DNA from: a phage
Sequence record: PZ445511.1
DNA: 64,000 nt
Strand: one strand, 5' to 3'
Made by a program: the position numbers and the translations under genes. Under the pieces are notes generated by a model, which saw only the letters and a program-made list of their open reading frames with translations, made no database searches and was not told where the DNA came from. Positions 9,412 to 55,980 of this stretch are shown in pieces (the stretch's first letter is position 1; each line of letters opens with the position of its first letter).

Positions 9412-10108
9412 GGCGTTTTCCTTTCTCTTTATCGAGTTTCAGTGCAGCTTTAACAGCTTCATTAACCAACGTGATAACTTCTTCACGGCCCCATTTAAAG
9501 CCAAGAGCTTTAACATCAACTCCCAGCTTTTCCAGATGTTTAACAGAAGCTAATTCGTAGTGCATATAGTGAACGTTCTGTTGTTTACCTTCTGATAACA
9601 ACCAAACACGATAGCAACCAACTGGGTTAGTCATTGCTTTCTTGATTTCACCAATACACTGATAGCCAGGAACCCAAACAAGTTCACCAACTTCAAATTC
9701 CTCTGCCATTGCATCATCAGGAATCAACGGAGGATTCAATGGATCAACAATATCATTTAAACGAAGCAGAGCACCATAACGTTCCAGAACAGATTTAATC
9801 ATCGCTACAGAACGATAGTTACGATCTGCGATTTCTTCAAAAGAATCACCAGAAAGATACTGTTCAATTACGTTTGCAAGCTCAACACCTTCAATCAGTG
9901 TTCCGCGCTTCTTCTTTTTCATTTCCGCAACCTGAACCTGACGATCCCTCCATTCCTCGATCATTCGTTCCATAGTTGGGTTAGAAGAAACACCGAGCAT
10001 TTCACATGCTGCTTTCTTAGTACCACCGTTCTCCAGATGTTCAATGACCTTTTTAAAGGTTTCATCAGGGATTTCATGGATAAGTTTCTTTCTACGAGAA
10101 CCAGCCAT
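9404..10108 (-). CDS. Putative DNA-binding protein with helix-turn-helix
   Basis: 234 aa; HTH-like segment KKAACEMLGVSSNPTMERMI near N-terminus. Confidence 0.5.
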   Translation of the reverse strand: MAGSRRKKLIHEIPDETFKKVIEHLENGGTKKAACEMLGVSSNPTMERMIEEWRDRQVQVAEMKKKKRGTLIEGVELANVIEQYLSGDSFEEIADRNYRSVAMIKSVLERYGALLRLNDIVDPLNPPLIPDDAMAEEFEVGELVWVPGYQCIGEIKKAMTNPVGCYRVWLLSEGKQQNVHYMHYELASVKHLEKLGVDVKALGFKWGREEVITLVNEAVKAALKLDKEKGKRRE

Positions 10109-10139
10109 ATTTAAACTCCTCTCTCAAATTTATGAATCT

Positions 10140-10168
10140 ATTATACAGAAAATTTTTCCTGAAAGCAA
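10140..10168 (-). promoter_or_regulatory. Sigma70 promoter (minus strand)
   Basis: Reverse complement ttgctt-17bp-tataat plus agattcataaatttgagag leader. Confidence 0.55.
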
Positions 10169-10176
10169 ATAAATTT

Positions 10177-10431
10177 TTACGATTCTTTGAGCAAAGAAGC
10201 AAGTTCAGCATAGACTTTATCTAACTCAAAGCCAATGCGAAGAGACACACGAGTCTTCCGTTGTTTAAGTAACCATATGGAGACGTTAGGGATGCCAGCG
10301 AGACGAGGTGGTACAACCCTACATAGTTTCTCCGCAGTATCGTAAACAGAAGTTTTACGTTCTTTTACGGGAAACTTCCTTGTTTCCCACTTTTTATTCT
10401 TCACTATCATTTCTAGCTCCCAATTCAGCAA
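10177..10431 (-). CDS. Hypothetical protein
   Basis: 84-aa ORF. Confidence 0.4.
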   Translation of the reverse strand: MLNWELEMIVKNKKWETRKFPVKERKTSVYDTAEKLCRVVPPRLAGIPNVSIWLLKQRKTRVSLRIGFELDKVYAELASLLKES

Positions 10432-26082: not shown

Positions 26083-26351
26083 TGTCTATTCTTTTATCTG
26101 CTTTAGAAGCAAAACAAAATACTATTGCTAGTATTAAAAAGGAAGTAATTGACTTAGAGTCACTTATTGCCGTAGAGATTGACAAAGCCATCAAAGATAA
26201 AGAATTTAACTGTCACATCCAGGGATTGACTGAATATTCAGAAAATGCTAGAAATAGCGTCATGCAAAAACTTAGCAAACTAGGTTATGTTGTGGAAGCT
26301 AAGTATGAGCAACGTGAAGGTTTTTGGCTTGAAATTGATTGGAGCAAATAA
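26082..26351 (+). CDS. Hypothetical protein
   Basis: 89-aa ORF translationally coupled. Confidence 0.5.
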   Translation: MSILLSALEAKQNTIASIKKEVIDLESLIAVEIDKAIKDKEFNCHIQGLTEYSENARNSVMQKLSKLGYVVEAKYEQREGFWLEIDWSK

Positions 26352-26827
26352 TGTCGGTTTTCCACATATATACAGATGGTGCATGTAAGGGCAATCCTGG
26401 TTTAGGTGCGTGGGGATTCGTTGTCTATAATGATAATGATGATCGTATTGGCTCTAAATCTGGCTTCAGCCATAAAACTACTAATAACGAAATGGAACTT
26501 ACTGCAATTGTTGAAGTTCTTCGTTGGTCTACTAAGAAAGATAATCGTCCAGTAATTATCTACACTGATTCTGCTTACTGCAAAAATGGTATGGAGAGTT
26601 GGGTATTTGCCTGGCAAAAGAAAGGATGGAAAAAAGCAGATGGTGAGGCCCCTCTTAATCTAGAACTATGGAAAGAGGCATTTTCTTTACTACAGAAATA
26701 TATAAACTTCCATGACACTACGCCTACTTTTATAAAAGTCAAAGGTCACTCAGGGGACCCTAGAAATGATGAAGTAGATGCTCTATGTAACACAGTTATA
26801 ACAGAGCAAGAATTAGCTGATATATAA
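26339..26827 (+). CDS. Ribonuclease H
   Basis: 162 aa; RNase H1 motifs YTDGAC...GxGxAxWG and TDSxY. Confidence 0.8.
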   Translation: MEQIMSVFHIYTDGACKGNPGLGAWGFVVYNDNDDRIGSKSGFSHKTTNNEMELTAIVEVLRWSTKKDNRPVIIYTDSAYCKNGMESWVFAWQKKGWKKADGEAPLNLELWKEAFSLLQKYINFHDTTPTFIKVKGHSGDPRNDEVDALCNTVITEQELADI

Positions 26828-26829
26828 TT

Positions 26830-27342
26830 ATGCTAACACAAGAAATTCTCAAGCAATTGCTAGATTATGATCCACTATCCGGTATTTTTACATGGAAAAC
26901 TAGAGATCCCGATAAGGGAGGATTTAATAAGCAATTTGCAGGTAAAGTAGCTGGAACCAAAAAATCTGGATATATCAGAATACAGATTAACGGAAAACCA
27001 TACGATGCCCATAGACTAGCCTTCTTATTTATGGAGGGCTATATACCAGAGCTGATAGACCATAAAGACAGAGTGGGAACAAACAACGCTTGGGACAATC
27101 TTAGAAAAGCTACTGATAGTCAAAATGCTGCAAACCAATCCGTCCGATCTACTAATATTTCTGGATATAAAAATGTATCCTGGGATAAGGCTAGAAATAA
27201 ATGGTTAGTTAATATCATGAAGGATGGTAAAACTATATATGGTGGTAGATTCTCTGAATTAGAGGATGCAGTAAATGCTGCCAATACTCTACGTTTGTCT
27301 TTATTTGGTAGCTTTGCTCTTTACGAAGAATTTATAAAATAA
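26830..27342 (+). CDS. HNH homing endonuclease (HNH_3 plus AP2-like DNA-binding domain)
   Basis: 170 aa; AHRLAFLF...DHKDR...NN..NLR motif followed by SGYKNVSW AP2-like region. Confidence 0.75.
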   Translation: MLTQEILKQLLDYDPLSGIFTWKTRDPDKGGFNKQFAGKVAGTKKSGYIRIQINGKPYDAHRLAFLFMEGYIPELIDHKDRVGTNNAWDNLRKATDSQNAANQSVRSTNISGYKNVSWDKARNKWLVNIMKDGKTIYGGRFSELEDAVNAANTLRLSLFGSFALYEEFIK

Positions 27343-27706: not shown

Positions 27707-27735
27707 TTGCTAAACGCTTCAAAATTTCGTATAAT
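27707..27735 (+). promoter_or_regulatory. Sigma70 promoter
   Basis: ttgcta-17bp-tataat with A-rich UP-like region. Confidence 0.6.
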
Positions 27736-31787: not shown

Positions 31788-31958
31788 ATGAAAACCTTAG
31801 TAATTATTGGTGTTAATACTCATGGTATTCGTACTACGAAAACAGTTAAAACTACTAACATTGCTGAAATTACTACAAATCCTAAGAAGTTTGATTTCGC
31901 CAAAGTCTCAGCAGTTATGACAGAACAATCTTTTAACCAAGCACTGGGAATTAAATAA
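31788..31958 (+). CDS. Hypothetical protein
   Basis: 56 aa from ATG after gagagg RBS. Confidence 0.45.
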   Translation: MKTLVIIGVNTHGIRTTKTVKTTNIAEITTNPKKFDFAKVSAVMTEQSFNQALGIK

Positions 31959-32401
31959 TGGAAGAGAATATTCTAGATGTTTTGCGTAGGGCTTTGCAGG
32001 AATCCAAGTTTGATGGTTCTGATAAAGAAGTAGCTAAAAGCTACCAGACCATAATCGGAGATCTTCAGCGTGTTGATAAAGACTTCATTACTTCTGAACA
32101 GTTTATATCTTATCTAAAAGCTCAACTGAAAAGCATTAATCAGACGAAAGCTAAACTTCACAGTCAAGATCTTGATAATTATAGCTTGCAGTCTGCTCAG
32201 TATGAATATATACTGAACAAATGGTTACAGCAGTATTTGCCTCCTCAGCTATCTGATTCTGAGATTCGCAAATACTTCGCAGAATTAGTTAAGCTGAATC
32301 CTGGGATTACAAAGGGTATGCTGATGAAAGCGATTAAGGAAGAGTTTCCTGGTCGTTACGACGGTGGCATTGCTGCTCAGGTTGCTGGCGAATTTAATTA
32401 A
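31958..32401 (+). CDS. GatB/YqeY-domain protein
   Basis: 147 aa; C-terminal YqeY-like block NPGITKGMLMKAIKEEFPGRYDG. Confidence 0.55.
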   Translation: MEENILDVLRRALQESKFDGSDKEVAKSYQTIIGDLQRVDKDFITSEQFISYLKAQLKSINQTKAKLHSQDLDNYSLQSAQYEYILNKWLQQYLPPQLSDSEIRKYFAELVKLNPGITKGMLMKAIKEEFPGRYDGGIAAQVAGEFN

Positions 32402-32409
32402 AAATTAAT

Positions 32410-32438
32410 TTGCTAAACGCTTCAAAATTCTGTATAAT
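32410..32438 (+). promoter_or_regulatory. Sigma70 promoter; downstream HNH ATG sits 7 nt after the -10
   Basis: ttgcta-17bp-tataat; ATG at 32445 with no Shine-Dalgarno. Confidence 0.5.
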
Positions 32439-32444
32439 ATATTC

Positions 32445-32927
32445 ATGAAAAGGAAAGAATACCCTACTAAAGAAATACTTGAAAAATATTTTGTAGCTGA
32501 TCCTGATAATGGGATACTATATAGGAAAACAAAGAAAGGTTTGAAAGAGTGTTGTGCCAATAATAAGAAATCACATCCAGATGTGGGATTTCAGGGCGAC
32601 ACCTATCAACTGCATGTCTTATTATTTATTATGTACTATGGATATAGGCCTGAAGAAGTAGATCATAAGGATACTAATCCTAGAAATAATAGGAAAAATA
32701 ATCTAAGGGACGCCTCTAGATCGCAAAATAATGCGAATAGAAACCAACAATGCAATAATACTTCTGGGTACAAAGGAGTAAGTTGGGAAGGCTCTTCCTG
32801 GAGATACCAAGTAAGACATGAAGGAAAAAATTACAGTAAAAGAGGGTTTAAAACTGCGGAAGAGGCTTTCGAGGCCTCTAAGATATTAAGAGAATCCTTA
32901 CATAAAGAATTTACTAACTTTGGTTAG
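32445..32927 (+). CDS. HNH homing endonuclease (HNH_3 plus AP2-like domain)
   Basis: 160 aa; VDHKDTNPRNN...NLR and SGYKGVSW motifs; paralog of 26830 and 37805 genes. Confidence 0.7.
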   Translation: MKRKEYPTKEILEKYFVADPDNGILYRKTKKGLKECCANNKKSHPDVGFQGDTYQLHVLLFIMYYGYRPEEVDHKDTNPRNNRKNNLRDASRSQNNANRNQQCNNTSGYKGVSWEGSSWRYQVRHEGKNYSKRGFKTAEEAFEASKILRESLHKEFTNFG

Positions 32928-32965
32928 TAATAGTGGGGTGCCGAAACCACTTATGTAACAACACT

Positions 32966-33037
32966 GCCGTCCTAGTATAATAGGTATTATTAGGGCTTCA
33001 CCGCCTGAAGATGTGGGTTCGAGTCCCACGGTCGGAA
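32966..33037 (+). other. tRNA-like element (canonical T-arm, non-canonical anticodon arm, no CCA)
   Basis: gtgggTTCGAGTcccac T-arm plus 6-of-7 acceptor pairing; 5-nt loop where anticodon loop should be. Confidence 0.3.
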
Positions 33038-33499
33038 AGAGTTGGATAACTGGTGCTTCTAATGGCGAAGCAATCGCAGGCAGTTGCGCACTGCCAAAAC
33101 CACGCGGTAGTTGGTTCCAGGCTAACCAACCACTCTTGAAAAGTATATACTACGGTTTTGCTTGTTCAGGAAGCTTCGCATCGAAAATCGGAGGTGCGAT
33201 TTTATCAGACCGCGTGGAGGACGTCTCTCCGTTAAGTGACGAAAAGTGGGACGATTCAGGTAGAGCTGGATATGGAACACCTATACATATGCGGAGTGCG
33301 CACAAAGCATATTGCGGTGGTACTAAACGAAATTAGGAGTCATGACCTGCACAAGTTTAGTATGTCATAACCGATGTACATTCAGTACAAAAACCACTGA
33401 AGCTAAGATAGATAGTCACCTTGACTTAAACTGGAAGATATTGTCTGACGGAAGGGCTGCAGAGCTTAATCTGAGGGGGCTGACCCTACCTACCGTCGG

Positions 33500-33539
33500 G
33501 TATCTTTAAGAGTTCTTACGAGAACTCTTAAAGATACCT
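33500..33539 (+). other. Perfect 18-bp inverted repeat hairpin with TACG loop
   Basis: ggtatctttaagagttct / agaactcttaaagatacc, exact complement, 18 nt upstream of the next ORF. Confidence 0.8.
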
Positions 33540-33557
33540 AAACATTAAGGAATACTG

Positions 33558-34067
33558 ATGAATCTAGGAACTACTTGTATATTTGATCACAGAGAAATGT
33601 GTTGCCCACATATTCTGTATGTAGTTCACTTTGCAGAACGTCTTACTCTGGATGAAGCTCGTGAGAAAATGGGTGGAATTACTGGATATGATTTCCGTGA
33701 AGGTGAATACTTTAGCATTGCTCTTGATTACATTGACAATACCCGTCTCTATCATCTAGTGCAGCTAGGGGAAGAAACTGATGAAGTGAAAATGGCGAAA
33801 GATACTCTACGTCGTTATCGTCCTCAGATTCTAGAACGTACACTTCGTGGAGAACGTAGTGACCCATTGTTCTTGAAGTGCTATGACGCAGATGTTAATG
33901 AGTATCTAGGACAGCAACGGTTTTACACTGAAATCAAAGAGTTTGTTCGTGAAAAATACGACGCTCTACTAATTGATTCCAGAGCACGACGTGCAGCTAA
34001 AAATGCTGAGAAATCTGCTAAAGCAGCACTAGAAAGCCAAACCAAACTGAACGAAATCGTTAAGTGA
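33558..34067 (+). CDS. Hypothetical protein
   Basis: 169-aa ORF after aaggaa RBS. Confidence 0.55.
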   Translation: MNLGTTCIFDHREMCCPHILYVVHFAERLTLDEAREKMGGITGYDFREGEYFSIALDYIDNTRLYHLVQLGEETDEVKMAKDTLRRYRPQILERTLRGERSDPLFLKCYDADVNEYLGQQRFYTEIKEFVREKYDALLIDSRARRAAKNAEKSAKAALESQTKLNEIVK

Positions 34068-34075
34068 TCTAATTT

Positions 34076-34150
34076 CGGGGTGTAGTCTAAGGGATAGGCA
34101 GGAGTCTTCTAAATTCCTTTATGCAGGTTCGAATCCTGTCACCTCGGCCA
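34076..34150 (+). tRNA. tRNA-Arg (anticodon TCT)
   Basis: Acceptor cggggtg/cacctcg, anticodon loop cttctaa, T-arm gcaggTTCGAATcctgt, CCA encoded. Confidence 0.8.
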
Positions 34151-34176
34151 ATCTTATTACCTGTTAGGAAAATAAA

Positions 34177-34377
34177 ATGAAAACACGATATATAGTAAAA
34201 GTAGTAGGTGAACATTCGCAAGTAAATACCACGGATGTTACAGCACTAGCATTTGAGGTAGTCTCCGGTATAGTCATATTTCATAATGGGGATATCAAAG
34301 CTCCTGAATTTGCTGTGGATGCTGGCCTGTTTATTTCTGCAACTAAAGTAACTGTAGTAGCTAACTCTTCTAAATAA
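34177..34377 (+). CDS. Hypothetical protein
   Basis: 66-aa ORF just upstream of SPFH gene. Confidence 0.45.
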   Translation: MKTRYIVKVVGEHSQVNTTDVTALAFEVVSGIVIFHNGDIKAPEFAVDAGLFISATKVTVVANSSK

Positions 34378-34388
34378 TAAGGAAATAT

Positions 34389-35333
34389 ATGTTTACTAAA
34401 AACACTAAAGAACTGACTTCTGAGCAAAAAGTAATTCGTACTATTAAACGTTGGGGTGTTGGTGCTGCTATTAGTCTTGGTGCTCTTATTCTGGCTCTCA
34501 ATTCCTATACAGTTGTTCAGGATGGTACTGTTAAGACCCAAACCTTCCTGGGTAAAGTTAGCCCTAATCCTGTATTGCCAGGCTTCCATATTGTTAACCC
34601 ATTTGCTTCTTTTGATACTTTTAGTACGAAAGATATTTCCATGAAACTGGATAAACTTCAGGTTCCTAGCCAGGATAAGTTTAAGTCCACTGTTGACATT
34701 ACCGTTATGTTGCAGTTTGATGGTGCTAAAGCTCCTATGAACCGTGTTAACGCAGGTACTCAGGATCAAGCTCTGAACAAGTACGTTGAAGAGAAGATGC
34801 TGTCTACGATTCGTGAGTTTGGTAAGTCTGTACCAAAAGCACAAGATCTGTTCGACGCTAAGATTCAGGCTCAACTGCAAACCGCTATTCAGCAAGAAGT
34901 AGAAGAGTATGCGCGTCCTTATGGTTACACCGTTAAGCAAGTATTCCTTCAGGATATTACTCTGCCACCGGTAATCATGGAACAGGTACAGAACACCAAA
35001 GTTCGTGAAGAACAAGTTAACGCTGCAAAAGCTGAACTGGCTCGTGTTGAACAAGAAGCACAGCAGAAAGTTAAGCAAGCTGAGGCGGATCGTTCCGCTC
35101 GTGAAAACATGGCAGTAGCTAACGAACGTGACGCAGATGCTAAACTGTACGCAGCTAAGAAAGAAGCTGAAGCTAACGCCGCTCTGCAACGTACCATTAC
35201 TCCTGAAATGATTCGTTGGAAGCAGCTGGAAGTTGAAATGCTTCGTGCTGAAAAATACCAAGGTGGTGTACCACAGACTGTTGTCGGTACTGGCTACGAT
35301 GGTCAAATGATCATGGATATGCGTAACAAGTAA
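34389..35333 (+). CDS. SPFH/band-7 (stomatin/prohibitin-like) membrane protein
   Basis: 314 aa; N-terminal TM helix, SPFH core, long Ala/Gln/Glu coiled-coil C-terminus. Confidence 0.7.
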   Translation: MFTKNTKELTSEQKVIRTIKRWGVGAAISLGALILALNSYTVVQDGTVKTQTFLGKVSPNPVLPGFHIVNPFASFDTFSTKDISMKLDKLQVPSQDKFKSTVDITVMLQFDGAKAPMNRVNAGTQDQALNKYVEEKMLSTIREFGKSVPKAQDLFDAKIQAQLQTAIQQEVEEYARPYGYTVKQVFLQDITLPPVIMEQVQNTKVREEQVNAAKAELARVEQEAQQKVKQAEADRSARENMAVANERDADAKLYAAKKEAEANAALQRTITPEMIRWKQLEVEMLRAEKYQGGVPQTVVGTGYDGQMIMDMRNK

Positions 35334-35346
35334 TAGTTACACGTAA

Positions 35347-35383
35347 TCTTCGAACCAAGCCCGCGTTTCCTTCGAGAGCGCGG
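35347..35383 (+). terminator. Rho-independent terminator
   Basis: aagcccgcg...cgcgggctt hairpin then TTTCTATATTT. Confidence 0.6.
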
Positions 35384-35537
35384 GCTTTTCTATATTTAAG
35401 GCAAAAGAAAAAGCCCATAAGTTATTCAACTAAGGTCTTTAGTATTTAATTCTTTAGAATCATATACTATTATTGCAGCAACAACGTGCTAACCTTAAGT
35501 GCCCTGCGATTTTCCTCTAAAAAGTTAAAAAATTCGA

Positions 35538-35566
35538 TTGCTTGAATGCTAAATTCTCTGTATAAT
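35538..35566 (+). promoter_or_regulatory. Sigma70 promoter for nadR-pnuC
   Basis: ttgctt-17bp-tataat; leader identical to the one at 37402-37437. Confidence 0.6.
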
Positions 35567-35596
35567 ATATTTATAAATTTGAGAGAGGAATCAAAT

Positions 35597-36652
35597 ATGA
35601 TTAAGACTGGTCTAGTAATTGGTAAGTTCGCACCATTAACGCGTGGTCATATTAACCTAATAAACACAGCAGCAACTATGTGTGAACGAGTTATTGTTGT
35701 AGTTAGTCATGATAATCGTTGGCTGGATAAGCAGAACACACGTGATAAGGAAGTATTACAGTTAAAGAATCGACTTCGTTGGTTAGAACAAACTTACGCG
35801 GATATTGAGCACATTTCGGTAGAGTACATTATTGAAGATGATATTCCTGAATATCCGAATGGTTGGCCGGAATATGCTAGAATCCTTAATGAAAATTACG
35901 GACATTTGCCTGAGATCACCGTTTTCTCTAGCGAACTAGACTATGATGCAGAATATAAGAAATATCTGCCGAAGTTTGGTCATTATATTGTAGATTCTGA
36001 TCGGACTCGTGTTCCAATCTCAGCTACAATGATTCGTAATGATCTTATGAAGTATTGGGAGTTTCTTCCTAGCGTAGTTCGTAAAGATTACGTGCGTAAG
36101 GTTGTAATCATTGGGACTGAAAGCTCGGGAAAGACTACTTTAACAAAATACCTTGCGAAGCTATACAACACTTCGTGGGTAGAAGAATATGGTCGAACGT
36201 ATTGTGAAGTTGATCTAGTTGGTAACGAAAATCTGCTTACCAGCGAAGATTATAGTAAAATTGCGTTCAGACACAAAGAGCTAGAGTTTGAAGCAGAACG
36301 TACTGCAAATAAGATCATGTTTGTGGATACAAATGCTTTTATTACTGAGTTCTACCACAGACTTTATGAACATAGTAAGAATCCTGTGGTTACAGCAATT
36401 GCAAAAGAAGAACATTATGATTTAGTAATTGTTCTAGCGCCTACTGTCAAGTGGGTAGATGATGGTTTACGTATTAACTCCGATCGTTCAATTACTTCTG
36501 AACTATTCGAGCAGATGAAGAAAGAATTTCCAAATCAGTTCCCTGAAGGGCGTACTGTTTACATCGACTCTCCGGACTACAAAGTTCGTATGGACGAAGC
36601 AGTAAACGCAGTAGACTGGCTGATTCATCACTTTAACGTTGGAGAGTTTTAA
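35597..36652 (+). CDS. nadR: NadR-type bifunctional NMN adenylyltransferase / ribosylnicotinamide kinase
   Basis: N-terminal nucleotidyltransferase GKFAPLTRGH (HxGH-class), C-terminal P-loop GTESSGKTTL kinase; start set after gagagagg RBS. Confidence 0.75.
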   Translation: MIKTGLVIGKFAPLTRGHINLINTAATMCERVIVVVSHDNRWLDKQNTRDKEVLQLKNRLRWLEQTYADIEHISVEYIIEDDIPEYPNGWPEYARILNENYGHLPEITVFSSELDYDAEYKKYLPKFGHYIVDSDRTRVPISATMIRNDLMKYWEFLPSVVRKDYVRKVVIIGTESSGKTTLTKYLAKLYNTSWVEEYGRTYCEVDLVGNENLLTSEDYSKIAFRHKELEFEAERTANKIMFVDTNAFITEFYHRLYEHSKNPVVTAIAKEEHYDLVIVLAPTVKWVDDGLRINSDRSITSELFEQMKKEFPNQFPEGRTVYIDSPDYKVRMDEAVNAVDWLIHHFNVGEF

Positions 36653-36653
36653 T

Positions 36654-37331
36654 ATGACTAACTATCTCGTAAATGACTTTAAAAACTGGAAACCTCTGGA
36701 ATATCTGTGGCTGTTCATAGCGGTTGTCTTCATTAGTTTAGCAAACTATAATGGTACAGCTCTAGATTGGGCTACTGCAATAACCAATGTGGTTTGTGTT
36801 ATTCTGGTTGCAAAAGGACGTATTTCCAACTATATTTGGGGCTTAGTGGGTGTTCTTACATATGGTATTACAGCTTTAAACGCAGATCTTTATGGTAACG
36901 CTGCACTAAACCTGCTATACTACGTTCCTATGCAGTTTTATGGAATGTACTTATGGCATAAAAATAAGCCAAGTAATCTGCCAGATGTTCCAACTAAGGT
37001 TCTGACTAAAGCCCAAGCTCTGCTGACTCTAGGGATTCTAGCAGTAGCCACGTTAGGGTATGGTAGTTTCTTAGCTACTACGGCTGATCCATTTCCAATG
37101 TTGGATGCATTTACTGCTGTAGGTAGTGTGATCGCTATGTGGCTTATGGTTAAGCAATATGCCGAGCAGTGGCTGATCTGGATTGCTATTAACATTGGTA
37201 CTGTGTACATTTGGCTTGTAACTGCTCAATCTACAGGTGCATCTTATGCAATCCTAGCAATGTGGCTAGTATTCTTAGGTAACTCTATTATAGGAGCCTA
37301 TAAAGGATACTTTGTACGCGTTAACAAATAA
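36654..37331 (+). CDS. pnuC: PnuC-like nicotinamide riboside transporter
   Basis: Multi-helix membrane protein with conserved W/Y-rich PnuC-like blocks; coupled to nadR. Confidence 0.65.
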   Translation: MTNYLVNDFKNWKPLEYLWLFIAVVFISLANYNGTALDWATAITNVVCVILVAKGRISNYIWGLVGVLTYGITALNADLYGNAALNLLYYVPMQFYGMYLWHKNKPSNLPDVPTKVLTKAQALLTLGILAVATLGYGSFLATTADPFPMLDAFTAVGSVIAMWLMVKQYAEQWLIWIAINIGTVYIWLVTAQSTGASYAILAMWLVFLGNSIIGAYKGYFVRVNK

Positions 37332-37338
37332 AGTAGTT

Positions 37339-37364
37339 ATAGCCCTCGCTTAGAGGGCTATTAT
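37339..37364 (+). terminator. Hairpin terminator after pnuC
   Basis: atagccctc-gctta-gagggctat, weak U-tract. Confidence 0.45.
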
Positions 37365-37378
37365 ACAGAAATTTTCAC

Positions 37379-37407
37379 TTGCTTAATATAGAAAATTTCT
37401 GTATAAT
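37379..37407 (+). promoter_or_regulatory. Sigma70 promoter
   Basis: ttgctt-17bp-tataat; -10 plus leader plus RBS duplicated from nadR promoter. Confidence 0.6.
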
Positions 37408-37437
37408 ATATTTATAAATTTGAGAGAGGAATCAAAT

Positions 37438-37734
37438 ATGAAACGCATTGTACTTGCATTGACTCTAGTATCTACTTCTGTATTTGCTGCTCCACAACAG
37501 GAACTTTGTCAAGTTCAAGTTTGTAATAAGCTAGAACGATTTACTCTAGACATTTGGTCCCACATTAAAGATAATATGGGTGAACAGTGTTTTGATATTG
37601 TTCTGCCAAAAGAACAAGCTGTTCCTGGGGCTGTTCTCAGCTCAGAATCACGTTGGTGGCAAGGTTCTTCTATCAACCCAACTAAGAAGTCAGTGACACG
37701 TATCAAACAAGTATATCAGTGCAACGTTCAGTAA
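37438..37734 (+). CDS. Secreted Cys-containing protein
   Basis: Signal peptide MKRIVLALTLVSTSVFA then mature domain with 4 Cys. Confidence 0.55.
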   Translation: MKRIVLALTLVSTSVFAAPQQELCQVQVCNKLERFTLDIWSHIKDNMGEQCFDIVLPKEQAVPGAVLSSESRWWQGSSINPTKKSVTRIKQVYQCNVQ

Positions 37735-37742
37735 AATTTCAC

Positions 37743-37771
37743 TTGCTTAATGCCGAAATTTTCTGTATAAT
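37743..37771 (+). promoter_or_regulatory. Sigma70 promoter
   Basis: ttgctt-17bp-tataat. Confidence 0.55.
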
Positions 37772-37804
37772 ATATTCATAAATTTGGAAGATTAGGAACT
37801 ATTT

Positions 37805-38314
37805 ATGTTAGACTATGAGTCTATACTTTATAGATTCCGTTTAGAAGATGGTGTACTGGTGTGGAATCCGCTCTCCGGAAACTCCAGAGAGGAGAAGATA
37901 TTTAATACTAAGTTTGCCAATAAACCTGCGGGATCTTTGCACAAAAGCTCTGGGTATATCAGAGTTAACGTTGATCACCAAGATTACTTAGCTCATATCA
38001 TAGTATTTATACTATGATATGGGTATAGGCCGGAAATGGTTGATCATAAAGACTGCAATAAGTTAAATATACATCCTTTAAATTTAAGAGCAGCGGATAG
38101 TACCACTAATACTCATAATGCTAGTAAATCTTCTAGGAATACTAGCGGATTTAAGGGAGTATCCTACCACAAAGCATCTGGTCAGTGGCAGGGTAGAATA
38201 ATGTTTAAAGGTAAGTCATACTCCGCAGGGCTGCACAGTACTCCTGAAGCAGCAAATGAAGCTCTAATTCAACTGAGAGAGAAACTTCATGGGGAATATG
38301 CCCGAAATAATTAA
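37805..38314 (+). pseudogene. HNH homing endonuclease interrupted by in-frame TGA at 38015-38017
   Basis: Reading continues in the same frame across TGA: ...AHIIVFIL-stop-YGYRPEMVDHKDC..., matching the paralog sequence FIMYYGYRPEEVDHKD. Confidence 0.55.
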
Positions 38315-38403
38315 GGAAGAATAGCATAACGGTATTGCAGCAGATTGCTAATCTGTCGGTTTGAAACATAGCCTTGTGGGTTCGATTCCCACTTCTTCCG
38401 CCA
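38315..38403 (+). tRNA. tRNA-Ser (anticodon GCT), class II
   Basis: Acceptor ggaagaa/ttcttcc, anticodon loop ttgctaa, long variable arm, T-arm gtgggTTCGATTcccac, CCA. Confidence 0.75.
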
Positions 38404-55951: not shown

Positions 55952-55980
55952 TTGCTAAACGCTTAAAATTTTGATATAAT
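55952..55980 (+). promoter_or_regulatory. Sigma70 promoter
   Basis: ttgcta-17bp-tataat. Confidence 0.6.

What the first reader, a model, noticed from the sequence alone, without database searches (positions are those of the whole stretch)
35561..37440. Duplicated promoter-leader-RBS cassettes and a leaderless HNH gene
The strings tataatatatttataaatttgagagaggaatcaaatATG at 35561-35599 and 37402-37440 are identical, and most plus-strand promoters share the ataaattga leader block. The HNH gene at 32445 has its ATG only 7 nt after the -10 with no SD, so it looks inserted into such a cassette and translated leaderless or poorly.
Basis: seen in the sequence. Interest (0 to 1): 0.45.

Follow-up and report, generated by a model that had tools for sequence, protein, structure and literature searches.

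The report
T5 early promoter cassettes; leaderless HNH
The repeated strings are the well-known strong early promoters of T5-like phages, leader and ribosome site included; two copies bracket a movable NAD-salvage gene pair, and a homing-endonuclease gene sits exactly at another promoter's predicted transcription start, so it is probably translated without a leader.

Summary
The window is a T5-like Salmonella phage (Epseptimavirus). The "cassettes" are the classic T5 early sigma-70 promoter design: -43 AAAAATT, -35 TTGCTw, 17-18 nt spacer, TATAAT, ATATT discriminator, ATAAATT(T)GA initial transcribed sequence, SD, and an ATG about 24 nt downstream. The window holds 32 such sites. This consensus is already published for T5-like phages, and one site is 64/65 identical to P_N25.

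The exact repeat is 44 nt (35557-35600 = 37398-37441), far above family similarity. Copy 1 is the ortholog of T5 promoter P15a. Copy 2 is a chimera of a different -35/spacer with the P15a -10/leader/SD. Together they flank nadR-pnuC plus a terminator hairpin. In relatives the same cassette is fused to three different genes, and homology breaks at -16, +3, +8 or the ATG. This fits module shuffling by recombination between promoter cassettes, as with T4 PeSLs.

The HNH gene replaces the transcript of the T5 P16-17 ortholog from +3 onward, so its ATG occupies +1 to +3. Four anciently diverged alleles keep TATAAT-N6/7-ATG under purifying selection; 0 of 77 distant homologues do. Leaderless translation is therefore likely but is inferred, not shown. 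The promoter part is known; the leaderless homing endonuclease is a modest novelty.

The parts
35538..35599 (+). Promoter-leader-RBS cassette 1, the ortholog of T5 promoter P15a. -35 TTGCTT 35538-35543; -10 TATAAT 35561-35566; discriminator ATATTT 35567-35572; predicted +1 A at 35573; ITS ATAAATTTGAGAG 35573-35585; SD GAGG/AGGA 35585-35589; ATG 35597. It drives nadR.
   Evidence: The T5 record AY734508 annotates 'promoter P15a' on the orthologous 75 nt. P15A was validated as an early promoter by primer extension (PMC7472727).
35557..35600 (+). Exact 44-nt repeat, copy 1 (-16 to ATG+1).
37398..37441 (+). Exact 44-nt repeat, copy 2 (-16 to ATG+1).
35597..36652 (+). nadR-like gene: NMN adenylyltransferase plus ribosylnicotinamide kinase (CTP_transf_like + AAA_28).
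36654..37331 (+). pnuC nicotinamide riboside/NMN transporter.
37339..37361 (+). Strong stem-loop (AUAGCCCUC-GCUUA-GAGGGCUAU) directly after pnuC, about 18 nt upstream of the -35 of promoter 2. It is a terminator-like half of a terminator/promoter composite, although its U-tail is weak.
   Evidence: -18 kcal/mol, z = -5.4.
37379..37440 (+). Cassette 2, a chimeric promoter. -35 TTGCTT 37379-37384 and the spacer are of the tRNA-Ser-promoter type. -10 37402-37407, +1 37414, SD, and ATG 37438 are of the P15a type. It drives a 98-aa ORF.
37438..37734 (+). 98-aa ORF of unknown function (no Pfam match). In phage HMD-P2 it is fused directly to the full P15a promoter.
37743..37804 (+). Third cassette. 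-35 37743-37748; -10 37766-37771; +1 37778; leader ATAAATTT + GGAAGATTAG... It drives the HEG at 37805.
32410..32447 (+). Ortholog of T5 promoter P16-17. -35 TTGCTA 32410-32415; -10 TATAAT 32433-32438; discriminator ATATTC 32439-32444; predicted +1 = A of the HNH ATG (32445).
32445..32927 (+). Free-standing HNH_3 homing-endonuclease gene (160 aa) with a putatively leaderless mRNA.
32965..33038 (+). tRNA-like gene with anticodon UCA. It is the first downstream element of the transcription unit into which the HNH gene is inserted.
   Evidence: (Rfam tRNA 33 bits).
10106..10195 (-). Ortholog of the classic T5 P_N25 promoter. -35 10168-10163; -10 10145-10140; +1 10133; ATG 10108. It shows that the leader block is the N25-type initial transcribed sequence.
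   Evidence: 64/65 identical to the published P_N25 sequence.

Best explanation
The window is the early/tRNA region of a T5-like Salmonella phage.

(1) The 'cassettes' are T5-class early promoters used by host sigma-70 RNA polymerase. Their layout is an A-tract at -43, TTGCTw, a 17-18 nt spacer, TATAAT, an ATATT discriminator and an A start 7 nt after the -10. Then comes the conserved initial transcribed sequence ATAAATT(T)GA(G/T)GAG and an SD, and most protein-gene 5'UTRs are 21-28 nt. The ATAAATT block is a transcription element (the N25-type initial transcribed sequence), not a translation element, because it also precedes tRNA genes with only an 8-nt leader.

(2) The exact 44-nt pair is two copies of the -16-to-ATG part of promoter P15a. 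They bracket a nadR-pnuC-terminator module. Copy 2 is a recombinant of another promoter's -35/spacer with the P15a -10/leader/SD. The arrangement is best explained by unequal homologous recombination between promoter cassettes. That process also fuses the same cassette to other genes in relatives and could delete the module again between the two repeats. Functionally, both genes receive the same -10, start site, leader and ribosome site.

(3) The HNH homing-endonuclease gene has replaced the transcript of the P16-17 ortholog from +3 on, so its AUG is the predicted 5' end of the RNA. It is most likely translated as a leaderless mRNA by 70S ribosomes binding a 5'-terminal AUG. That would give low, SD-independent early expression.

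Shown: sequence architecture, orthology, junctions, purifying selection and conservation of the geometry. Inferred: the start site at 32445, leaderless translation, and the recombination mechanism.
For: Identity of the genome: 100% identity to Salmonella phage vB_SenS-3 and 99.9% to phage bux, Epseptimavirus.

Promoter family:
- There are 32 sites with conserved -45..-40, -35, -17..-13, -10, -6..-1 and +1..+14 blocks.
- The same consensus is published for T5-like AKFV33: TTGCTw, TATAATA, -43 AAAAATT, +1 TAAATT, 32 promoters (PMC3326045).
- All known T5 early promoters have an ATATT discriminator (PMC7472727).
- Window 10179-10115(-) is 64/65 identical to published P_N25.
- N25 initiates with ApU (bioRxiv 10.1101/042432), which I read as the AT of ATAAATT.
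- T5 promoter features in AY734508 all span -55..+20 around that A.
- ATAAATTC is followed directly by tRNA-Ser in T5 and smaug.

The pair:
- Identity is 44/44 against a next-best 36/44, with upstream halves at the family average.
- The same P15a cassette is fused at the ATG to T5p074 (T5, SSP1), nadR (window, smaug, S147) or orf98 (HMD-P2).
- STG2 and HMD-P2 break homology at -16.
- HMD-P2 reads exactly as the product of deletion between the repeats.
- A strong hairpin lies between pnuC and promoter 2.
- The PeSL precedent is in PMC2839356 and PMC4122927.

HNH:
- It has an HNH_3 domain.
- It is present in about 66 phage records at 80% identity or more, while many close relatives lack it.
- The left junction follows +2; the right junction is at GTGGGGTGCC, just 5' of the tRNA.
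- Four alleles (49-72% aa identity) keep TATAAT-N6-ATG (three alleles) or N7-ATG (one), two of them behind visibly diverged promoter sequences.
- pS is 0.70-0.84 against pN 0.13-0.41.
- All four use ATG, as leaderless translation in E. coli requires (PMC4965119).
- The 5' end is unstructured.
- 0 of 77 distant homologues have a -10 at that distance, and 44 of 77 have an SD.
Against: - There is no direct TSS mapping, ribosome or protein evidence for this phage. The start could be heterogeneous; initiation at the G at position 9 would remove the AUG.
- No terminator separates the upstream yqeY gene from the promoter. Read-through transcripts with an internal, SD-less AUG must also exist and could contribute.
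- The recombination history is reconstructed from extant variants, and its direction (insertion or deletion) is not resolved.
- Promoter 1 has no tight stem-loop immediately upstream (z = -1), so the terminator-promoter composite is not universal.
- The orf98 copy differs from the nadR copy by 1-2 nt in several relatives. Exact identity in this genome may be ancestral, or may be a small gene-conversion patch.
Confidence: 0.75

Rival explanations
1. The identical pair is a recent duplication or gene-conversion event private to this genome, such as replication slippage or an assembly artefact, with no link to module exchange.
For: Exact 44/44 identity in this genome. In several relatives the orf98 copy differs by 1-2 nt, so a small conversion patch in this lineage is possible.
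Against: The two-copy arrangement exists in many independently sequenced Epseptimaviruses at 42-44/44 (STG2, EscoHU1, 100268_sal2, PSa2, S147). The upstream halves are unrelated beyond family level. Natural variants carry each single-copy or alternative joint.
Confidence: 0.1
2. The identity reflects convergent selection of two promoters toward one optimal -10/ITS/SD sequence, not common descent.
For: The whole family is strongly constrained from -45 to +14. The nadR copy is invariant in 7 relatives.
Against: Positions +15 to +28 carry almost no family conservation, yet they are 14/14 identical here against at most 10/14 for any other pair. The expected number of identical pairs is about 3e-12. 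The same downstream half is found fused to orf98 behind the full P15a promoter in HMD-P2.
Confidence: 0.05
3. The HNH gene is not leaderless in practice. It is translated weakly from read-through transcripts of the upstream yqeY operon by SD-independent initiation on an AU-rich region, or it is essentially silent selfish DNA.
For: There is no terminator between yqeY (stop codon ending at 32401) and the promoter. The HNH paralog at 26830 also lacks an obvious SD and starts 2 nt after the upstream stop, so SD-poor starts occur among this phage's homing endonucleases.
Against: The ORF is under strong purifying selection, so it is expressed. The exact -10/N6-7/ATG geometry is retained in four alleles whose synonymous sites are saturated, two of them with visibly diverged promoter sequence and one with a different upstream gene. 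Distant homologues usually have an SD and never this geometry.
Confidence: 0.2
4. The true HNH start is downstream of 32445, so the promoter overlap is irrelevant.
For: None found.
Against: The next in-frame ATG is codon 62, inside the HNH_3 domain (residues 54-96). Residues 1-12 are conserved across alleles, with synonymous third-position changes. Homologues of 160-176 aa align from residue 1.
Confidence: 0.02

Closest known systems
Bacteriophage T5 early promoters (P_N25, P15a, P16-17 and others; Bujard-lab promoter set; consensus re-described for T5-like phage AKFV33)
   Same: Same element order and sequence: -43 AAAAATT, TTGCTw, 17-18 nt spacer, TATAAT(A), ATATT discriminator, +1 ATAAATT. 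Window sites are direct orthologs of P_N25 (64/65), P15a and P16-17.
   Different: Nothing essential. This is membership. Only the specific 44-nt pair and its gene fusions are particular to Epseptimaviruses that carry nadR-pnuC.
PeSLs (promoter-early stem-loops) of T4-type phages, mobile regulatory cassettes that mediate modular shuffling (PMC2839356, PMC4122927)
   Same: Repeated strong sigma-70 early promoters, sometimes just downstream of a stem-loop, lie at the boundaries of insertions, deletions and replacements between close relatives. A gene module is flanked by two cassette copies in direct orientation.
   Different: It is a different phage family and a different sequence. The stem-loop is not present at every cassette. 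Breakpoints fall inside the promoter/leader (-16 to ATG). No mini-circles have been demonstrated. I found no paper describing this for T5-like phages in the searches made.
Leaderless mRNAs of E. coli and its phages (for example lambda cI from P_RM), translated by 70S ribosomes that recognise a 5'-terminal AUG (PMC4965119 and references therein)
   Same: The AUG is placed at the predicted +1 of a sigma-70 promoter, with no 5'UTR or SD, and all alleles use AUG.
   Different: The start site and translation mode are not measured here. The gene is a homing endonuclease on an early phage promoter. The searches made found no paper reporting this.
Free-standing HNH homing endonucleases of the T5 tRNA region (F-Tfl enzymes) and T4 SegB in the T4 tRNA cluster (PMC10644984, PMC2330249)
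   Same: A small HNH_3 ORF in the tRNA gene region, variably present among close relatives and lying next to a tRNA gene.
   Different: Enzyme activity and target are untested for this protein. Here the ORF starts at the transcription start, whereas the T5p074-type HEG behind P15a has a normal 24-nt SD leader.

Membership tests
T5-class early sigma-70 promoter | -35 TTGCTw, 17-18 nt spacer, -10 TATAAT(A) | tested here: met
   All three focal sites and 32 sites in total; published consensus.
T5-class early sigma-70 promoter | A/T-rich -43 block (AAAAATT) and ATATT discriminator | tested here: met
   Positions -45..-40 are 88-97% A/T-specific. The discriminator is ATATTT or ATATTC at the focal sites (PMC7472727).
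T5-class early sigma-70 promoter | Conserved initial transcribed sequence (T)AAATT from +1 | tested here: met
   Met at 35573, 37414 and 37778. At 32445 it is replaced from +3 on by the HNH ORF.
T5-class early sigma-70 promoter | Orthology to experimentally defined T5 promoters | tested here: met
   P15a, P16-17, P_N25.
T5-class early sigma-70 promoter | Early-class activity and start site in infected cells | not testable with these tools
   Only literature data for T5 P15A primer extension and N25 ApU initiation.
Leaderless mRNA gene | Start codon is AUG with no upstream in-frame alternative | tested here: met
   ATG in all four alleles. The ORF listing gives 32445 as the first start after the preceding in-frame stop; I read that stop as TAA at 32406.
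Leaderless mRNA gene | Transcription start coincides with the A of AUG | tested here: inconclusive
   The geometry (-10 + 6 nt, C at -1, A at +1) matches the N25/P15a start rule. No TSS data exist for this site.
Leaderless mRNA gene | No SD and no 5'UTR on the promoter-proximal transcript | tested here: met
   Sequence. It is the only one of the 32 sites with an ATG at +1; most protein-gene sites have a 21-28 nt UTR.
Leaderless mRNA gene | 70S-dependent initiation at the 5'-terminal AUG | not testable with these tools
   Needs toeprinting or reporter assays.
Free-standing HNH homing endonuclease | HNH nuclease domain with conserved catalytic His/Asn residues | tested here: met
   PF13392 HNH_3, E = 1.2e-11. 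H57, D73, H74, N86 and N95 are invariant in the alignment.
Free-standing HNH homing endonuclease | Presence/absence polymorphism at one locus among close relatives | tested here: met
   62 of 327 records carry the full allele, and others have a non-coding replacement.
Free-standing HNH homing endonuclease | Site-specific cleavage of the HEG-less allele, and homing | not testable with these tools
   Needs enzyme and co-infection assays.
PeSL-type mobile regulatory cassette | Composite of stem-loop terminator and strong early promoter | tested here: inconclusive
   Clear at 37339-37440 (z = -5.4). Not evident immediately upstream of 35538 (z = -1.0); the nearest terminator-like hairpin is at 35357-35387.
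PeSL-type mobile regulatory cassette | Cassettes lie at indel or replacement boundaries between close relatives | tested here: met
   Breakpoints fall at -16, +2/+3, +8 and the ATG in six independent comparisons.
PeSL-type mobile regulatory cassette | Member of the T4-type PeSL sequence family, or mini-circle formation | tested here: not met
   It is a different phage family and sequence, so this is an analogy of mechanism only. Mini-circles are not testable here.

The most novel reading that the evidence does not exclude
T5-like phages have maintained, over long divergence, a homing-endonuclease gene whose AUG is the very 5' end of an early transcript (the P16-17/'RNAX'-tRNA unit). Leaderless translation would then be a selected way to express a potentially harmful nuclease at a low, SD-independent level. 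In parallel, the highly conserved T5 early promoter/leader cassettes would act as PeSL-like recombination joints that insert, delete and re-fuse gene modules such as nadR-pnuC.
Probability: 0.5. Interest if true: 0.45.

Novelty: new member of a known kind. Interest (0 to 1): 0.3.

Why it matters
The promoter architecture is textbook. P_N25 is among the most studied and most used E. coli promoters, so rediscovering it adds nothing.

Two side results could be useful.

First, this would be a natural, evolutionarily conserved leaderless gene on a T5 early promoter. It would be a clean model for how mobile nucleases are kept at low expression. It would also be a ready-made natural test case for leaderless translation during phage infection.

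Second, the evidence suggests that promoter/leader cassettes are the crossover points for gene-module exchange in Demerecviridae. That would explain why auxiliary metabolic genes such as the NAD-salvage pair nadR-pnuC come and go in otherwise syntenic genomes. It would also extend the PeSL concept beyond T4-type phages.

Tried and rejected
- The primary papers Gentz & Bujard 1985 and Kammerer et al. 1986 are not in the held library. I therefore relied on secondary sources that quote the N25 sequence, the ITS/anti-DSR result and the promoter consensus.
- Searching IMG/VR for HNH relatives gave only distant homologues (45% identity or less) from unrelated phages. These were useful only as a negative control.
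- An exact-pattern scan for the N-terminal codons found a single contig, with the same arrangement.
- Rfam found only tRNAs in the window and in HNH-less relatives.
- The small hairpin AUUUGA/UCAAAU that would display the SD in a loop of the duplicated leader is not more stable than shuffles. It is also broken in T5, by my reading of the T5 leader. I dropped it.
- I considered programmed UGA read-through of the second HEG. The TGA is confined to the 100%-identical sublineage and the gene is intact in 99.6%-identical relatives, so this is most likely a recent nonsense mutation.
- The generic promoter scan is uninformative: 50 sites found against 49.6 expected. A family-specific search was needed.
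Full report
**What the sequence is.** Window 32000-38000 is 100% identical to Salmonella phage vB_SenS-3 and 99.9% identical to phage bux (Demerecviridae, Epseptimavirus). 454 T5-like phage records match it. The region is the early/tRNA part of the genome, with 28 tRNA-like genes between 32.9 and 46.8 kb. Genes around the finding, in order:
- yqeY-like gene, 31958-32401
- HNH_3 gene, 32445-32927
- tRNA-like gene with anticodon UCA, 32965-33038
- SPFH-family gene, 34389-35333
- nadR-like gene, 35597-36652
- pnuC, 36654-37331
- a 98-aa ORF, 37438-37734
- a second HNH/AP2 gene, 37805-38314
- tRNA-Ser, starting at 38315

**Observation.**
- The 39-mer is exact at both stated positions and occurs nowhere else with up to 3 mismatches.
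- The full exact repeat is 44 nt, 35557-35600 = 37398-37441. It reads TCTG-TATAAT-ATATTT-ATAAATTTGAGAGAGGAATCAAAT-ATG-A and is flanked by mismatches.
- A family-specific scan finds 32 sites of one architecture, 25 on the plus strand. The repeat finder recovers the same family as its top direct and inverted repeats.
- Conserved blocks are -45..-40 AAAA(A)T, -35 TTGCT, -17..-13 TTcTG, TATAAT, -6..-1 ATATTT, +1..+7 ATAAATT and +8..+14 GA(G/T)GAGA. Conservation fades after about +18.
- Most protein-gene sites have a 21-28 nt 5'UTR.
- About half the plus-strand sites carry ATAAATT exactly: 12 of 25.
- The HNH ATG begins 7 nt after the last T of its TATAAT and has no SD. It is the only one of the 32 sites with an ATG at +1.

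**This architecture is already known.**
- Niu et al. 2012 describe for T5-like phage AKFV33 '32 promoters', consensus TTGCTw / TATAATA, 17-18 bp spacing, a -43 AAAAATT region and a +1 TAAATT region (PMC3326045).
- Klimuk et al. 2020 state that all T5 early promoters have an ATATT discriminator. They also validate P15A as an early promoter by primer extension (PMC7472727).
- The published P_N25 sequence is CATAAAAAATTTATTTGCTTTCAGGAAAATTTTTCTGTATAATAGATTCATAAATTTGAGAGAGGAGTT (PMC4447248). It is 64/65 identical to window 10179-10115 on the minus strand, and the first native codons ATGGCTGGTTCTC follow there.
- The N25 initial transcribed sequence (+3 to +20) controls promoter escape and productive yield, as shown by N25 versus N25antiDSR (PMC12464699).
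- N25 initiates with ApU (bioRxiv 10.1101/042432). I read this as the AT of cATAAATT, 7 nt after the -10.
- The T5 GenBank record AY734508 annotates its promoters as 75-nt features. At every site I checked these span -55..+20 around that same A.
- In T5 and in phage smaug, ATAAATTC is followed immediately by tRNA-Ser. The ATAAATT block therefore belongs to transcription, not translation.

**Why two copies are identical.**
- The 44/44 identity is not explained by family constraint. The next-best pair is 36/44 and the mean is 23.
- Positions +15..+28 are 14/14 here against at most 10/14 for any other pair.
- The expected number of identical pairs is about 3e-12.
- The parts upstream of -16 are only at the family average, 21/41.

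Copy 1, with its whole upstream region, is the ortholog of T5 promoter P15a. That same promoter, leader and SD is joined at the ATG to different genes in different phages:
- T5p074, a homing-endonuclease-like ORF, in T5 and SSP1
- nadR in the window, smaug, S147 and others
- the 98-aa ORF in HMD-P2

Copy 2 follows a strong hairpin after pnuC (37339-37361; -18 kcal/mol; z = -5.4). Its -35 and spacer resemble the tRNA-Ser-type promoter seen at 37743 and in smaug, but from -16 on it is P15a.
- In smaug the post-pnuC promoter runs straight into tRNA-Ser.
- In STG2 the nadR promoter has a different upstream half, joined again at -16.
- HMD-P2 reads exactly as the product of deleting everything between the two 44-nt repeats.

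Across seven relatives the nadR copy is invariant and the orf98 copy differs by 0-2 nt (AAAC, TTC, TGTAAT). The pair is therefore old and conserved, not a fresh duplication. The simplest mechanism is unequal homologous recombination between promoter cassettes. That leaves nadR-pnuC as a module bracketed by direct repeats. This works like the PeSL cassettes of T4-type phages (PMC2839356, PMC4122927), but it is not a member of that sequence family.

**The HNH gene: insertion.** The protein has an HNH_3 domain (E = 1.2e-11) and matches 160-176-aa homologues from residue 1. Of 327 records that share the flanks, 62 carry this allele. Others carry a diverged allele, a 205-nt or 370-nt non-coding segment, or a different downstream region. 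In HNH-less relatives the same promoter reads TATAATAGATTCAT|AAATTAGAGAAC... and the window reads TATAATATATTCAT|GAAAAGG. Homology resumes at GTGGGGTGCC, just upstream of the tRNA-like gene. In T5 this promoter is annotated P16-17 and drives 'RNAX', which runs to tRNA-Arg. The ORF therefore replaces the transcript from +3 on, and its ATG occupies +1..+3.

**The HNH gene: leaderless reading.**
- Four alleles all keep TATAAT-N6-ATG, or N7-ATG in L093. They are the window allele, CRW-SP5 (49% aa identity), a Logan contig L012 (72%) and L093 (71%; different upstream gene). Two of them sit behind visibly diverged promoter sequence.
- Synonymous sites between the alleles are saturated (pS 0.70-0.84) while pN is 0.13-0.41. 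Codons 3-8 show synonymous changes. The protein is therefore under selection and is read from this ATG.
- The next in-frame ATG is codon 62, inside the nuclease domain.
- None of 77 distant homologues from IMG/VR has a -10 at this distance, and 44 of them have an SD.
- The first 56 nt of the putative mRNA are essentially unstructured.
- E. coli 70S ribosomes initiate on 5'-terminal AUGs and require AUG (PMC4965119). All four alleles use ATG.

Leaderless translation is the best-supported mechanism, at about 0.6 by my estimate. Read-through transcripts from yqeY must also exist, because there is no terminator between the genes. They could add SD-independent initiation.

**Comparison, novelty and verdict.**
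- The cassettes are members of the T5 early-promoter class, and every sequence criterion is met.
- The exact pair is a by-product of module recombination.
- The HNH gene is a free-standing homing endonuclease of the kind known to cause most differences among T5-like genomes (PMC10644984).
- The full-text searches I ran found no paper reporting a leaderless homing endonuclease, or promoter-cassette-mediated shuffling, in T5-like phages. Absence from that library is not proof of novelty.
- Overall this is mostly a rediscovery of a classic, with one modestly new and testable detail. Interest 0.3.

Noticed in passing
window 37805-38314 (TGA at 38015-38017) and 32965-33038: The second HNH/AP2 homing-endonuclease gene is one reading frame interrupted by a single in-frame TGA, and it is annotated as two ORFs in phage bux. 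The same genome encodes a tRNA-like gene with anticodon UCA, which would read UGA. The TGA is confined to the 100%-identical sublineage (bux, KKP_3831). The gene is annotated as a single ORF in 99.6%-identical relatives and is called F-TflVI in mar003J3. This is most likely a recent nonsense mutation, but suppression by the phage tRNA is not excluded.
   Followed up: partly
window 37778-37804 and 38315-38325: The leader of the 37805 HEG is ATAAATTT followed by GGAAGATTAG. That repeats the first ~9 nt of tRNA-Ser, which begins GGAAGAATAGC at 38315. In T5, smaug and S147 the same promoter is followed directly by tRNA-Ser after ATAAATTC. So this HEG sits between promoter position +8 and the tRNA 5' end, with a short duplication of the tRNA start.
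   Followed up: partly
L003 944-1192 (phage vB_EcoS-26175III); L100 1894-1850 minus strand (T5): Where the HNH gene is absent, the P16-17 transcript begins with a structure whose 5' AUAAAUUAGAGAA pairs with a downstream UUCUCUAGUUUAU. In Epseptimaviruses the whole ~215-nt fold has MFE -76.5 kcal/mol (z = -3.3). In T5 only the closing hairpin is present, and the region is annotated 'RNAX'. No Rfam family matches. This is a candidate structured leader or ncRNA in front of the tRNA-like gene.
   Followed up: partly
window 32965-33038: The 'tRNA-SeC(tca)' call is a low-scoring tRNA-like element (Rfam 33 bits against a gathering score of 29). Its anticodon-arm region differs in T5 and Stitch, where annotators call no tRNA. 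Its identity as an opal-reading tRNA is uncertain.
   Followed up: no
window 27707-27726, 32410-32429, 55952-55969: Three promoters share the same -35/spacer module, TTGCTAAACGCTT(C)AAAATT, but have different downstream leaders. Other promoters share leaders but not spacers. This combinatorial pattern suggests repeated recombination inside promoters.
   Followed up: no
window 26830-27342: A third HNH_3 paralog (170 aa; 37% identical to the 32445 protein) starts 2 nt after the stop of an upstream 162-aa ORF (26339-26827), which I take to be RNase H-like from its sequence but did not test. It has no obvious SD and no promoter, which is another SD-poor start for a homing endonuclease.
   Followed up: no
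window 33039-33557: About 520 nt without an annotated gene lie between the tRNA-like element and ORF 33558-34067 (169 aa, no Pfam match). That ORF is absent from phage bastian. The stretch probably corresponds to part of the T5 'RNAX' transcription unit.
   Followed up: no
window 35546 and 37420: The mechanical ORF list extends nadR to an ATG at 35546 and orf98 to a TTG at 37420. Both lie inside the promoter or leader, upstream of or at the predicted +1. They are not plausible starts. The SD-preceded ATGs at 35597 and 37438 are.
   Followed up: yes
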